Positions 38,504 through 42,032 of a DNA stretch of 64,000 nucleotides are shown here, piece by piece (the stretch's first letter is position 1; every line of letters starts with the position of its first letter). The notes beneath the pieces were generated by a model. The model worked only from the letters and a program-made list of their open reading frames with translations. It had not been told where the DNA came from and searched no databases. This DNA is from Dictyostelium discoideum (lineage: Eukaryota): NCBI GenBank assembly GCA_000004695.1, contig CM000151.3, positions 7,328,001-7,392,000 of the forward strand, given 5' to 3'. Both the position numbers and the translations under genes were made by a program.

Positions 38504-41500
38504 ATGAGTAGTATTGGTAATAAAATTAAATCTAAAAAATTTAAAGATCGTTTAAGTGGATATGATGAAATGTTAACATTATTTAATAATATAAAGGATC
38601 CAAATTCAAGTGAATTTGCAAAGTATTCATCATCGTTTGAAAAGATATTATTAATTGATCCACAACCAGCCAATAAAGAGAAAGCATTACAAGTCCTATA
38701 TGCATTCTTAGATAAAGCATCTTTTGTACATTTACCATCAACACCATTATCCTTCTATTCTGATTTAATTACATCAATCGTTGACAACTGTTTCAATTCA
38801 CGTGATTCCATAAAATTAAAATCAATTGATTGTTTATTATTATTAGTTGAAATTATTGGTCCATATATTGTAATTGTAAGTTTAGTTTATTTATTTATTT
38901 ATTTATTCTTTTTTACAAAAACAAATATTATATTAATAATAAATAATTTTTTTTTTTTTTTTTTTTTTTTTTTTTTTTTTTTTTTTTTTTTTTTTTTTTT
39001 TTTTTTTTTTTTTTTTATTAGCAATATATTTGTGAAATATTATCAAATAGTAATAGTAATAATAAAGCACCAAAGATTATAATATCATGTATATATACAT
39101 TAAAAGAGATTGTTAAACAATTTGGTGTTTCAGCTAATGTACCAGTTGATTTGATATTAAAAGATTTATTAGGATTTTTTGAACATCAATCAAAGGATGT
39201 TAGAGTTGAAGCATTGAATTTATCAGTTCAACTTTATATTTGGTTAGGTGATCAAATTACTCAACATTTAAAATCACTAAGACCAACTCAATATAAAGAT
39301 TTTGAACAAGCAATTTCAAATTTAAAAAATTCAAAATCTTCAATACCACAATCACCATCTCTAAGAAATTTTAGATCAACTGCAAATTTAAAACAAACTA
39401 AACAACAACAACAACAACAACAACAACAACAACAACAACAACAACAACAACAACAACAACAACAACAACAACAACAATCAATTGCAACTTCTACTCAAAC
39501 TCCAAATTCTTTATCATCTTCAATTCCAATTATTAATACTAATAATAGTACTAATAATAATAATAATAATAATAATAATAATAATAATAATAATAATAAT
39601 AATAATAATAATAATAACAGCACTAATAATAATAGTGGTAGTGTTGGTGCACAAAGTAATAATAATAATACAGTAGCAACAACACCACAATCATCATCAC
39701 CAACATTATCAACAGCAACTAGCGGTAGTTTAGGAAGTAATTATTCAACATCACCATCACTCGATACGAATCCAGATGAAATTCATTGTAAACTTTATGA
39801 ATTTTATAAACTTTCTGAAGATCCGTCTTGGTCAATTAGAAAACAAGGTATTGCTGATGTTTTCATCCCTTTAATATCTCATGAGAAAATTACTCAATTA
39901 TCTGATCAAGATTATTCAAAAATTTCTTATACAATGGCAAAGGTACATTTTTTTTTTTTTTTTTTTTTTTTTTTTTAAAAAAAATAATAATAATTATTTA
40001 TTAATATATTAAAATTTTAATTATATATATACTTTTAAATATTTTTAAATTTATTAAAAAAAGTTACTTGGTGACTCAAATATATTTGTAATTTTAACAA
40101 CAATTAATGCAACGGAATTATTAGTAAAGAAATTATCAAGAGATTTATTTTTTAATCATATTATATCATTGGTACCAATAATGTTGGATAGTTTTAAAGA
40201 AAAGAGACCATTACTATGTGATAGTATTCATGCATGTTTAAATACTATAATGGATAGACAATTAAAAATTAATGAAGTTTTAGATTTCATAATTGAACTA
40301 TTATTAAATAGTAAAGTTTCAAAATTAAAATATGAAGTAATGTTATGGTTTAGAAGATTAGTTATGGCTTCACCTTTATCTTGTTTTAAAAATGATGTTT
40401 CAATAATGGTTAATGCTTTATCATTAGTATGTTAAATTTAATTTTAAAATTTAATTTTAAATTAATATTATTATTACTTACTTTTTTTTTTTTTTTTTTT
40501 TTTTTTTTTTTTTTTCTCTTAACCTTTAATAACAAAAACAATAAAAATAATAATAATAATAGAATGTAGATGATCCAGTTAAAGAGAATAGAGATATTGC
40601 AATTTTAACAATTAGTACAATTGGATATATTGTTGGTGAGAAAGAAGTATTACCATTATTATTACATTTAGATGAATTGAAAATAAATCAAATTAAAGAG
40701 ATTATGAAAGAAACTGCTCAATCAGGTTGGTCAAAAGGTAAAAAGTCTGATCAAATTGTAAATAATAATAATAATAATAGTAGTAGTAGTAGTAGTAGTA
40801 GTAATAATAATAATAATAGTAATAGTAATAATAATAATATTGGAAATTCAAGTAATAATACAAATATTGCCAATCCATCACCAACATCAGGTAGTATATC
40901 AACACCAACATCAAAACTTAAAACAATGATGACCAATATTTCAAATTCTCCATCATCATCACCATATTTAGATAATAAACAATTAAATAGTAATTCAAAA
41001 CCAAAACTTGTATTTAAGATTGAACCTGATTTACAACCAATTTCACAATCACCTCCACCATCAACCTCACCACCACCACTACCACCACCTGAACAACAAC
41101 AACCAACAACAACATCGCCAATTCCAATCAATACAATTTTAACCACCATAACATCATCCGAACAACAACAACAACAATCATCATCCATTGAAAATGATGA
41201 AATTAATGTAAATAGTATCCCGAACATCAACAACAACAACAACAACAATAATAATAATAATAATAATAATAATAATAATAATAATAATAATAATAATAAT
41301 AATAATAATAATAATAATAATAATAATAATAATAATAATAATAATAATAATAATGTTTTTAAAGAAATTGAAGATATTAAAAATTTATTAAATTCAAAAT
41401 TAAGTAATTTAATGGATTATACAAAAGAATTAGAATTTAAAAATCAACAATTAGAGAATAATAATAATAATACAAATAATACAAACAATAATAATAATAA

Positions 41501-42032
41501 AAATAATAATGGTTTAATTGATGATCATGATTATAGATTTTATGAAAATTTAAATATTGAATTATCAAAAGAATTACAAAATGAAAAAGAAAAGAAACAA
41601 TTATTATTAGAGAAAATGAAAGATTATGATAAACAAATCAATGATTTAATATCAACTTTTAGATTACTGTCACATGAAAATAAAGAATTGAAACAACAAA
41701 TTTGTTTACAAGATCGTGATATTCAATTATTGAATGAAATGATGAAAAAAGATGAAATCATAAAGACAACTCTATTACAAGAGATTGGAAAACTTAAAGA
41801 AAGTGCAAATTTAAATTTAACAACTAGTAGTTTAAATTCAACAAATACTACAAATATGAATATTATGGCTTTCTCAAATGATCCTTCAAGATATTTAGTT
41901 GAATTACCACCAACTGTCATTAGTCAATTACCTGAAGAGGAATTAGAATTATTTGAAGAATTATATCAAGAGAATTTACGTGTAATTCAACAACAACAAC
42001 AAAGAATTCGTGAATCAAAAGGAATTCAATAA
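38504..42032 (+). CDS. short TOG-domain protein (XMAP215/Dis1-type N-terminal TOG HEAT repeats, S/N/Q-rich linker, C-terminal coiled coil), ~1040 aa
   Basis: Exons 38504..38875, 39022..39942, 40064..40426 and 40563..42032. Donors are att|gtaagt, aag|gtacat and tta|gtatgt. TOG motifs: KIKSKKFKDRLSGYDEMLTLF; NKAPKIIISCIYTLKEIVKQFG..LLGFFEHQSKDVRVEALNLSVQLYIWLG (cf. XMAP215 [46 protein letters not shown]); LLGDSNIFVILTTINATELLVKKL; PIMLDSFKEKRPLLCDSIHACLNTI; LHLDELKINQIKEIMKE. C-terminal heptad coiled coil (..KQLLLEKMKDYDKQINDLISTFRLLSHENKELKQQ..). The exon 2/3 boundaries (39942/40064) are the least certain. Confidence 0.65.

What the first reader, a model, noticed from the sequence alone, without database searches (positions are those of the whole stretch)
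38504..42032. A short single-TOG protein ending in a coiled coil, distinct from the 2000-aa XMAP215 orthologue class
Four exons encode a TOG HEAT-repeat array with strong positional matches to XMAP215 TOG1 (NKAPKIIISCIYTLKEIVKQFG.., PIMLDSFKEKRPLL.., LHLDELKINQIKEIMKE). The array is interrupted by a ~150-aa polyQ/polyN insertion. It is followed by a ~300-aa S/N/Q/P-rich linker and a heptad coiled coil. A single TOG plus coiled coil resembles a minimal Dis1/Alp14-like or Stu2-like tubulin-binding dimer rather than the full polymerase.
Basis: partly seen in the sequence, partly recalled or inferred. Interest (0 to 1): 0.5.

Follow-up and report, generated by a model that had tools for sequence, protein, structure and literature searches.

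The report
Two-TOG, Stu2-like microtubule regulator gene
This is a real four-exon Dictyostelium gene for a short relative of the XMAP215 microtubule polymerase. It has two complete tubulin-binding TOG domains (not one interrupted TOG) followed by a coiled coil, which is the layout known from yeast Stu2/Alp14. It belongs to an uncharacterised set of amoebozoan paralogues that exist beside the 2000-aa CP224 form.

Summary
The coordinates, the four exons and the three introns are confirmed, giving a 1041-aa protein. The weak gtacat donor at 39943 is validated. The junction it creates is an uninterrupted reading frame in Polysphondylium and Acytostelium. An intron sits at the same codon in D. firmibasis and D. 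citrinum.

The "single TOG interrupted by a polyQ/N insertion" reading is wrong. Residues 3-226 are a complete TOG1. Residues 375-612 are a complete TOG2, matching Msps TOG2 at E 5e-18 and Alp14 TOG1-TOG2 by sequence and by fold. The polyQ/N tract is the linker between the two TOGs.

After a ~200-aa low-complexity linker come heptad helices (815-847, and 874-970 as one 97-residue helix). A tail motif conserved across dictyostelids follows.

All coding blocks tested are under strong purifying selection (dN/dS 0.01-0.09). Proteins with the same layout occur in Ceratiomyxa, Balamuthia and Pelomyxa. Four of them group at 80% bootstrap with the window protein and its D. firmibasis and P. violaceum orthologues, apart from the fungal short clade and from the long CP224 orthologues.

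Differences from Stu2/Alp14: TOG1 has Phe in place of the loop Trp, the inter-TOG linker is 2-3 times longer, the basic region after TOG2 is weak, and the tail is unrelated.

Most likely function: a dimeric tubulin-binding regulator of microtubule ends. This is inferred, not shown.

The parts
38504..38875 (+). Exon 1 (aa 1-124), the N-terminal half of TOG1. It includes the HEAT-A loop, where Phe13 replaces the family Trp.
   Evidence: The N-terminus and the junction GPYIVI|QYICEIL are colinear with the D. firmibasis and D. citrinum proteins.
38876..39021 (+). Intron 1 (gtaagt...ag, 146 nt). It contains a perfect T70 run.
   Evidence: There is an intron at the same position in D. firmibasis, D. 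citrinum and P. violaceum.
39022..39942 (+). Exon 2 (aa 125-431): the C-terminal half of TOG1, the inter-TOG linker and the start of TOG2.
38510..39327 (+). TOG1 domain (aa 3-226; spans intron 1).
   Evidence: Pfam PF21041, E 2.4e-48. Alp14 TOG1 in 6mze, domain E 3e-16. Family-conserved K11, K14, R16, D52, K139-x-P141-K142 and R185 are kept. W->F13, N->Q54, K->N95 and D->S181 are changed.
39328..39771 (+). Inter-TOG linker (aa 227-374), polyQ/polyN/Ser/Thr-rich. Its first 30 aa are basic and carry an SxIP-like SSIP (39337-39348).
   Evidence: The linker measures 136 aa here, against a median of 39 (5-95%: 29-50) in 123 other family members.
39943..40063 (+). Intron 2 (gtacat...ag, 121 nt), the 'weak donor' intron.
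   Evidence: The junction is an uninterrupted ORF in P. violaceum (L004 9373/9374) and A. subglobosum (L002 8288/8289). There is an intron at the same codon in D. firmibasis and D. citrinum.
39772..40742 (+). TOG2 domain (aa 375-612; spans introns 2 and 3). It is the most conserved part of the protein.
   Evidence: Msps TOG2 in 2qk2, E 5e-18, and Alp14/Stu2 TOG2. W394, R397, K398, D435, N437, K476-E-K-R479, K515 and R562 are kept. dN/dS is 0.009-0.09.
40064..40426 (+). Exon 3 (aa 432-552), the middle of TOG2.
   Evidence: It is 99% identical at protein level to D. firmibasis and D. citrinum.
40427..40562 (+). Intron 3 (gtatgt...ag, 136 nt). It splits TOG2, so exon 4 is needed to complete the domain.
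   Evidence: The D. citrinum annotation reads through this intron and truncates its model.
40563..42032 (+). Exon 4 (aa 553-1041 plus stop): the end of TOG2, linker 2, the coiled coil and the tail.
40743..41348 (+). Linker 2 (aa 613-814), rich in N, S and P and only weakly basic. It contains a patch conserved within group-4 Dictyostelium (aa ~670-708).
   Evidence: K+R 7 and D+E 9. Over the 200 aa after TOG2 the best 60-aa window carries net +5, against a median of +9.5 in fungal-like short members. The patch is 95-100% identical in D. firmibasis and D. citrinum.
41349..41447 (+). Coiled-coil segment 1 (aa 815-847).
   Evidence: Heptad scan. AF2 helix 472-504 in trimmed numbering, which is aa 815-847.
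41526..41816 (+). Coiled-coil segment 2 (aa 874-970), one predicted 97-residue helix. It starts with the conserved motif FYExLNxELxKELQxEKxKK.
   Evidence: The heptad score exceeds the 95th percentile of shuffled maxima. AF2 helix 512-608 in trimmed numbering. The motif is conserved in five dictyostelids.
41880..42029 (+). C-terminal tail (aa 992-1041): DPSRYLVELPxxIIxQLPEEELELFEExYQENLRxI, with a predicted amphipathic helix at 1010-1037. It is a probable partner-binding or localisation element.
   Evidence: Conserved in D. firmibasis, D. citrinum (locus), P. violaceum, A. subglobosum and Synstelium. dN/dS is 0.01-0.04 over aa 906-1007, a block covering the second half of coiled-coil segment 2 and only the first 16 tail residues. 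No Pfam or PDB relative was found.

Best explanation
The locus is one intact, selectively maintained gene for a 1041-aa XMAP215/Dis1-family protein. Its layout is TOG1, a long low-complexity linker, TOG2, a second low-complexity linker, a two-segment coiled coil, and a conserved tail helix. This is the layout of yeast Stu2/Alp14/Dis1.

Shown:
- The gene model.
- The two TOG domains and their positional equivalence to XMAP215 TOG1 and TOG2.
- Retention of the tubulin-contact residues in TOG2 and of most of them in TOG1.
- A long heptad helix near the C-terminus.
- Purifying selection on every tested coding block.
- A set of similarly built amoebozoan proteins.
- Coexistence with a ~1920-aa CP224-type paralogue in the same genome (Acytostelium).

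Inferred:
- The coiled coil makes a homodimer that presents four TOGs.
- Each TOG binds curved alpha/beta-tubulin, with TOG2 as the main binder.
- The protein acts on microtubule ends, as a polymerase or other dynamics regulator.
- Because the basic lattice-binding linker is weak, recruitment probably depends on partners. Candidates are the dictyostelid-specific tail helix and, in group-4 species, an SxIP-like motif that could bind EB1.
- It would therefore be a specialised second XMAP215-family factor beside CP224, much as Dis1 stands beside Alp14 in fission yeast.
For: Gene model. Intron 2 is absent in two species with a continuous ORF across the junction, and introns sit at identical codons in two others. 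Full-length single-gene orthologues exist in D. firmibasis (995 aa, 81% identity) and P. violaceum (914 aa). A single Ceratiomyxa transcript encodes TOG1, TOG2 and the coiled coil.

Two TOGs.

Contact residues. W394 and R562 sit in columns that are 100% conserved in the family, and K476-E-K-R479, K139-x-P-K142 and R185 are kept.

Coiled coil.

Selection: dN/dS 0.009-0.09 at dS 0.2-0.5.

Clade and paralogy: 80% NJ bootstrap for the amoebozoan short clade, which is separate from the fungal-like short clade. The long orthologues P0017, P0022 and P0123 fall elsewhere in the tree. The window TOGs are only 24-32% identical to dictyostelid long forms, the same as to fish CKAP5.

Background on yeast members (a TOG pair plus a dimerising coiled coil, with TOG2 more critical in Alp14): PMC4142611. 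CP224 is the only Dictyostelium XMAP215-family member listed in the 2021 centrosome review PMC8534566.
Against: There is no expression, localisation or biochemical data.

TOG1 carries Phe13 instead of the HEAT-A loop Trp. In a 119-sequence family alignment that column is Trp in 113 sequences, Phe in 3 and gapped in 3, and all three Phe are dictyostelid short forms. TOG1 also has three further changes at family-conserved columns, so it may bind tubulin weakly.

The region after TOG2 is not clearly basic: net -3 over 200 aa, with the best 60-aa window at +5. Fungal-like short members range from +6 to +13. Processive lattice-assisted polymerase action of the Stu2 kind is therefore doubtful.

Dimerisation is only predicted.

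The C-terminal region has no detectable similarity to the Stu2/Alp14 C-termini or to anything in Pfam or the PDB.

The SxIP-like motif is conserved only within group-4 Dictyostelium.
Confidence: 0.7

Rival explanations
1. The domain layout is the same, but the protein is not a polymerase. Lacking a strong lattice-binding region and having a modified TOG1, it would act as a site-restricted tubulin-binding factor. Examples are a kinetochore- or centrosome-tethered factor, or a catastrophe-promoting factor like fission-yeast Dis1. The conserved tail would place it there.
For: The basic region is weak. TOG1 has W->F13 and other substitutions. The tail is strongly conserved within dictyostelids. 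Precedent: Dis1 is reported to induce catastrophe rather than growth (title and abstract of PMC9701203).
Against: TOG2 keeps every major tubulin-contact residue. According to PMC4142611, a Phe occupies the same loop position naturally in Msps TOG5. Nothing tested here separates polymerase activity from other end-regulating activities.
Confidence: 0.22
2. One reading: a single TOG domain split by a ~150-aa low-complexity insertion and followed by a coiled coil, giving a minimal one-TOG dimer.
For: Pfam's PF21041 model reports only one stretch for this protein, aa 3-221. Viewed alone, that looks like one TOG.
Against: aa 375-601 align end-to-end with the whole Msps TOG2 crystal chain (residues 9-232 of 242, E 5e-18) and with Alp14/Stu2 TOG2. 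Each half has its own HEAT-A loop aromatic and HEAT-E Arg. The fold search aligns both halves to the two TOGs of Alp14.
Confidence: 0.02
3. Two adjacent genes: a TOG protein (exons 1-3) and a separate coiled-coil protein (exon 4). The D. citrinum and A. subglobosum records are annotated this way.
For: D. citrinum has 528-aa and 511-aa models. A. subglobosum has 180-aa and 524-aa models.
Against: The split points differ between the two species. Intron 3 cuts TOG2 before its last HEAT repeat, so exon 4 is needed to finish the domain. The D. citrinum model ends in read-through intron sequence, [18 protein letters not shown]. D. firmibasis, P. violaceum and Balamuthia have single-gene models, and Ceratiomyxa has a single transcript.
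Confidence: 0.03
4. A CLASP-type rescue or pause factor rather than an XMAP215-type protein.
For: SxIP-like motifs lie in Ser-rich linkers. Pfam CLASP_N hits TOG2 of the Balamuthia, Pelomyxa and environmental homologues at about 1e-10.
Against: No CLASP structure appeared among the PDB sequence hits at E<0.01, whereas Stu2, Alp14 and Msps did. CLASP_N does not hit the window protein. The named best database relatives are XMAP215, CKAP5 or alp14 proteins. There is no third TOG and no CLIP-interacting C-terminal domain.
Confidence: 0.03

Closest known systems
Yeast short XMAP215/Dis1-family members: S. cerevisiae Stu2, S. pombe Alp14 and Dis1
   Same: [quoted passage not shown] The best PDB sequence and fold matches are Alp14/Stu2 TOG1-TOG2. 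TOG2 is the better conserved domain here, which parallels the greater importance of TOG2 in Alp14 (PMC4142611).
   Different: In the TOG1+TOG2 tree it is not in the fungal short clade. The inter-TOG linker is 136 aa against about 40-60. TOG1 has Phe instead of the loop Trp. The region after TOG2 is weakly basic at best. The coiled-coil and tail sequences show no detectable similarity. It also coexists with a long five-TOG-class paralogue, which yeasts lack.
Dictyostelium CP224 (DdCP224, the XMAP215 orthologue) and its dictyostelid orthologues (P0017, P0022, P0123; 1919-1920 aa)
   Same: Same family. TOG1 and TOG2 are positionally equivalent to CP224 TOG1 and TOG2. Both forms are encoded in the same genomes, shown here for A. 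subglobosum.
   Different: Only 24-32% identity in the TOGs. It has two TOGs rather than the longer array, a coiled coil in place of the long C-terminal region, and Phe13 where the long forms have Trp.
Uncharacterised amoebozoan short homologues: Ceratiomyxa fruticulosa P0006 (793 aa), Balamuthia mandrillaris P0010 (840 aa), environmental P0035 (853 aa), Pelomyxa schiedti P0016 (1252 aa, auto-named 'alp14')
   Same: All have TOG1, a long 80-125-aa linker, TOG2, a second linker and a coiled coil. Ceratiomyxa, Balamuthia and the environmental protein form an 80%-bootstrap clade with the dictyostelid proteins; Pelomyxa was not in the tree.
   Different: They keep Trp in the TOG1 loop. Their C-terminal sequences are not detected by a dictyostelid coiled-coil+tail profile. 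Pelomyxa adds a C-terminal RING finger.

Membership tests
XMAP215/Dis1 (ch-TOG, Stu2, Alp14) family | An N-terminal array of TOG domains of the XMAP215 TOG1 and TOG2 types | tested here: met
   PF21041 at E 2.4e-48. aa 9-226 match Alp14 TOG1, and aa 375-601 match Msps TOG2 (5e-18) and Alp14/Stu2 TOG2. Foldseek's top hits are Alp14 TOG1-TOG2 chains at E 7e-15. TOG1 and TOG2 profiles each pick the equivalent TOG in long members.
XMAP215/Dis1 (ch-TOG, Stu2, Alp14) family | Conserved tubulin-contact residues in the intra-HEAT loops (HEAT-A Trp, basic residues in loops C and D, HEAT-E Arg) | tested here: inconclusive
   TOG2 meets this fully: W394, K476-E-K-R479, K515 and R562. TOG1 keeps K139-x-P-K142 and R185 but has W->F13, N->Q54, K->N95 and D->S181. 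Phe occurs naturally at this loop position in Msps TOG5 (PMC4142611).
XMAP215/Dis1 (ch-TOG, Stu2, Alp14) family | A basic Ser/Lys-rich microtubule-lattice-binding region next to the TOGs | tested here: not met
   The 200 aa after TOG2 carry net charge -3, and the best 60-aa window is +5. The corresponding figures are a median of +9.5 (range 6-13) in 32 fungal-like short members and +9 in 63 long members. A small +5 patch follows TOG1. The test uses a charge proxy only; binding was not measured.
Short (yeast-type) subclass: Stu2/Alp14/Dis1 | [quoted passage not shown] | tested here: inconclusive
   Heptad regions lie at 815-855 and 883-951, with a score above the 95th percentile of shuffled maxima. 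AF2 predicts helices at 815-847 and a single 97-residue helix at 874-970. The oligomeric state cannot be tested with these tools.
Short (yeast-type) subclass: Stu2/Alp14/Dis1 | Common descent with the fungal short forms (same clade, related C-terminal partner-binding segment) | tested here: not met
   In the NJ tree the amoebozoan short clade (80% bootstrap) is separate from the 27-member fungal-like short clade that contains Candida P0046, although deep nodes are below 35%. The dictyostelid coiled-coil+tail profile gives only E>0.2 against fungal-like members. There are no Pfam or PDB hits.
XMAP215/Dis1 (ch-TOG, Stu2, Alp14) family | Microtubule polymerase activity and plus-end, centrosome or kinetochore localisation | not testable with these tools
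   This needs TIRF assays with purified protein and imaging of a tagged protein in Dictyostelium.
CLASP family | A CLASP-type TOG array (TOG1-3) with a C-terminal CLIP-interacting domain | tested here: not met
   There are only two TOGs, both of XMAP215 type. There is no CLASP_N hit at E<=1 and no CLASP chain among the PDB hits. The C-terminus is a coiled coil.

The most novel reading that the evidence does not exclude
Amoebozoa carry an old, previously undescribed second lineage of XMAP215-family proteins. That lineage would have acquired the dimeric two-TOG plus coiled-coil design independently of fungi and kept it alongside the monomeric long polymerase (CP224). In dictyostelids it has lost the canonical TOG1 Trp and the basic lattice-binding linker and gained a private tail. 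It would then be a partner-tethered factor, for example at the kinetochore or centrosome, rather than a free polymerase. This would be a natural experiment on why cells use the 2x2-TOG design versus the 5-TOG design.
Probability: 0.35. Interest if true: 0.55.

Novelty: new member of a known kind. Interest (0 to 1): 0.4.

Why it matters
The usual textbook division of the XMAP215 family puts monomeric five-TOG proteins in animals, plants and Dictyostelium (CP224), and dimeric two-TOG proteins in yeasts.

This gene shows that dictyostelids, and apparently other Amoebozoa, encode both designs in one genome. The short one is not closely related to the fungal short forms. Dictyostelium researchers thus gain an unstudied candidate regulator of microtubule ends, spindle or kinetochore. 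In a tractable organism it also makes testable whether the two designs do different jobs.

It also flags annotation errors: the orthologue is split into two gene models in the D. citrinum and A. subglobosum records.

The family, the fold and the likely biochemistry are all well known. The finding is therefore useful but not startling.

Tried and rejected
1. Exact-sequence look-up of the 1041-aa model found nothing in the collection. The source species' own annotation could therefore not be seen.

2. The search for homologous proteins returned only 2-3 hits in each of three searches and never the same full set. Its word index seems swamped by low-complexity sequence. The exhaustive representative search was needed to find the non-dictyostelid relatives.

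It was replaced by A3.

4. Tail homology beyond Dictyostelia is not claimed. A seed alignment suggested that the Balamuthia and environmental tails match the dictyostelid tail. A second alignment placed them against mid-coil sequence instead. A dictyostelid-only profile does not detect them at all.

5. Pfam and PDB sequence searches with the C-terminal 168-225 aa found nothing meaningful.

6. The afdb50 fold library was unavailable, so no UniProt identifier was obtained.

7. A guess at dictyBase identifiers near the neighbouring kinase gene gave no relevant paper.

8. Thecamoeba P0084 (582-aa transcript fragment) groups next to the short clade but has a normal 36-aa inter-TOG linker. It is not counted as a member.

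9. The 165-aa ORF on the minus strand at 40751-41248 lies opposite the Asn/Ser-rich linker-2 coding sequence. I read it as a low-complexity artefact, not a gene; this was not tested.

10. A tandem 'pseudo-dimer' AF2 run was considered and dropped. The tool returns no contacts, so it could not show how the helices pair.
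Full report
**What the window is**

The sequence is extremely AT-rich (GC 12-30%). It has perfect trinucleotide repeats and short GT..AG introns, which marks it as a Dictyostelium-type genome.

The closest available relatives of this locus are D. citrinum and D. firmibasis. Protein identity is 92-99% in the ungapped coding blocks tested (parts of TOG1, TOG2 and the coiled coil), with dS of 0.2-0.5.

Gene order is shared with both species. A Prp19-like gene and an unnamed gene lie upstream. A kinase gene lies downstream; the Pkinase family assignment is, and the CK2-alpha label is my own reading of the sequence. 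My inference is that the window is D. discoideum or a very close relative. I could not confirm this, because the exact protein is not in the searchable collection.

**Observation check**

An ATG at 38504 opens a + strand gene with four exons: 38504-38875, 39022-39942, 40064-40426 and 40563-42032. All junctions are phase 0, and the product is 1041 aa.

Comparative data settle that point:
- In P. violaceum and A. subglobosum the codons on either side of this junction (..AK|LLGD..) are contiguous, with no intron.
- In D. firmibasis and D. citrinum an intron sits at exactly the same codon, with donors gtacca and gtaaaa.
- Introns 1 and 3 are likewise positionally conserved.

Intron 3 cuts inside TOG2, so exon 4 is required to complete that domain.

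dN/dS against both sister species is 0.009-0.09 in every block tested, including the second half of the coiled coil and the first 16 residues of the tail. The whole model therefore behaves as coding sequence under constraint.

**What it is**

The central correction is that there are two TOG domains, not one.
- Pfam's TOG model covers aa 3-221 (E 2.4e-48).
- A sequence search of the PDB aligns aa 9-226 with TOG1 of Alp14/Stu2.
- The same search independently aligns aa 375-601 with essentially the entire Drosophila Msps TOG2 chain (E 5e-18) and with Alp14/Stu2 TOG2.
- An AlphaFold model of the protein with low-complexity regions removed (mean pLDDT 71, higher in TOG2) finds the Alp14 TOG1-TOG2 crystal chains as top Foldseek hits. 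These hits span ~510 aligned columns (E 7e-15).
- Profiles built separately from the two halves each pick the positionally equivalent TOG (TOG1 or TOG2) in long XMAP215 proteins.

The polyQ/polyN tract (within the aa ~227-374 linker) is therefore the inter-TOG linker.

Downstream of TOG2 there are four parts:
- A ~200-aa linker rich in N, S and P (613-814).
- A heptad helix at 815-847, followed by a polyN spacer.
- A single predicted 97-residue helix at 874-970.
- A tail (992-1041) with a predicted amphipathic helix at 1010-1037.

**Relatives**

Dictyostelid orthologues:
- Full-length colinear orthologues exist in D. firmibasis (995 aa) and P. violaceum (914 aa).
- The D. citrinum and A. subglobosum orthologues are each split into two gene models in the public records, but all parts are present in the DNA.
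- Synstelium is also split.

An exhaustive profile search of 1.84 billion representatives gave 885 hits. Beyond Dictyostelia, the best hits with the same layout are:
- Ceratiomyxa fruticulosa (793 aa, a single transcript).
- Balamuthia mandrillaris (840 aa).
- An environmental protein (853 aa).
- Pelomyxa schiedti (1252 aa, auto-named 'alp14', with an added RING finger).

I built a neighbour-joining tree of concatenated TOG1+TOG2 (119 sequences, 437 columns, 200 bootstraps).
- Six proteins form a clade at 80%: the window protein, its D. firmibasis and P. violaceum orthologues, and the Ceratiomyxa, Balamuthia and environmental proteins. Pelomyxa was not in the tree.
- A separate 27-member clade of 750-900-aa proteins contains the Candida Stu2-like protein.
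- The dictyostelid long forms (A. subglobosum, C. fasciculata 'XMAP215 family protein', D. purpureum; 1919-1920 aa) are the nearest neighbours of the amoebozoan short clade.
- Deep nodes have under 35% support.

The window TOGs are only 24-32% identical to those long forms, no closer than to fish CKAP5. The paralogy is therefore old. A. subglobosum demonstrably encodes both a long and a short form.

**How it differs from the textbook short forms**

1. The HEAT-A loop Trp of TOG1 is Phe13. In the family alignment this column is Trp in 113 of 119 sequences, Phe in 3 and gapped in 3. All three Phe are dictyostelid short forms, and three further dictyostelid orthologues outside the alignment also show Phe. 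The non-dictyostelid amoebozoan short forms keep Trp. A Phe occupies this position naturally in Msps TOG5 (PMC4142611).
2. TOG1 has three more changes at family-conserved columns. TOG2 keeps all of them: W394, R397, K398, D435/N437, KEKR 476-479, K515 and R562.
3. The inter-TOG linker is 80-136 aa in this class, against a median of 39 elsewhere.
4. The region after TOG2 lacks the strong positive charge seen in fungal-like short members and in long members.
5. The coiled-coil and tail sequences are conserved across five dictyostelids but match nothing in Pfam or the PDB. A dictyostelid profile does not detect the C-termini of the other amoebozoan members.

An SxIP-like SSIP/STIP in a basic Ser-rich context directly after TOG1 is conserved only in group-4 Dictyostelium. 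It is a lead for EB1 binding and nothing more.

**Mechanism**

The best-supported reading is a coiled-coil homodimer presenting two TOG1-TOG2 pairs. These would bind curved tubulin dimers, and the protein would act at microtubule ends as in Stu2/Alp14. TOG2 would be the principal tubulin binder. Localisation would be supplied by partners through the tail, and possibly through EB1, rather than by a basic lattice-binding linker.

The domain identities and the residue conservation are shown. Dimerisation, tubulin binding, polymerase activity and localisation are inferred.

The main rival keeps the same architecture but proposes a tethered, non-polymerase role. I cannot separate the two computationally.

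**Literature**

Full-text searches found no description of a second XMAP215-family protein in Dictyostelium. The 2021 centrosome review lists only CP224 for the family (PMC8534566). The library is incomplete, so this is absence of evidence only.

**Verdict**

The gene is real and correctly delimited.

It is a new, uncharacterised member of a known family. It has a yeast-like architecture and some unusual features, and it belongs to an amoebozoan paralogue group that has not been discussed in the literature I could search. Interest is moderate.

Noticed in passing
L003 8001-9815 and 9925-11510 (D. citrinum, GCA_054859145.1); L002 7147-7848 and 8001-9718 (A. subglobosum, GCA_000787575.2): In both public records the orthologue is split into two gene models. 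The D. citrinum 528-aa model reads through intron 3 and ends in [18 protein letters not shown]. The A. subglobosum models separate TOG1 (180 aa) from the rest (524 aa). These look like annotation errors.
   Followed up: yes
window 39401-39477, 39534-39634, 41247-41354, 38947-39016: There are perfect or near-perfect simple repeats inside the gene. (AAC)25.7 encodes polyQ and (AAT)36 encodes polyN, both 100% pure. (TAA)33.7 also encodes polyN. Intron 1 holds an uninterrupted T70 run. Repeat lengths differ between the sister species, while the flanking residues are conserved.
   Followed up: partly
window 42391-42475: The intergenic region downstream of the stop codon holds a 16-bp tandem repeat, AAAAAAAAAAAGTTGG, in 5.2 copies at 90% match. 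Its function is unknown.
   Followed up: no
window 43599-44090 (+), and the neighbouring genes: The downstream neighbour is a protein kinase ORF, 96-100% identical to the genes flanking the orthologues in D. firmibasis, D. citrinum and P. violaceum. From its sequence it looks like casein kinase II alpha (my own reading). The TOG-kinase adjacency is conserved across Dictyostelia. Upstream, a Prp19-like gene (32384-33850, minus strand) and an unnamed gene (35809-38166, one intron near 36943-37050) are syntenic within group 4.
   Followed up: partly
P0016 (Pelomyxa schiedti), residues 1206-1246: The Pelomyxa homologue ends in a C3HC4 RING finger (Pfam zf-C3HC4_3, E 6e-8) after its coiled coil. 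It also has a ~200-aa N-terminal extension. A TOG-TOG-coiled-coil-RING combination would be unusual if the gene model is correct.
   Followed up: no
window 39337-39348 (aa 230-233) and 40914-41030 (aa ~670-708): Two short conserved elements lie inside otherwise fast-evolving low-complexity linkers. One is an SxIP-like SSIP in a basic Ser-rich context just after TOG1, conserved in three group-4 species only. The other is a patch, KLKTMMTNISNSPSSSPYLDNKQLNSNSKPKLVFKIEPD, that is 95-100% identical in D. firmibasis and D. citrinum. Both may be linear motifs for partners or kinases.
   Followed up: partly
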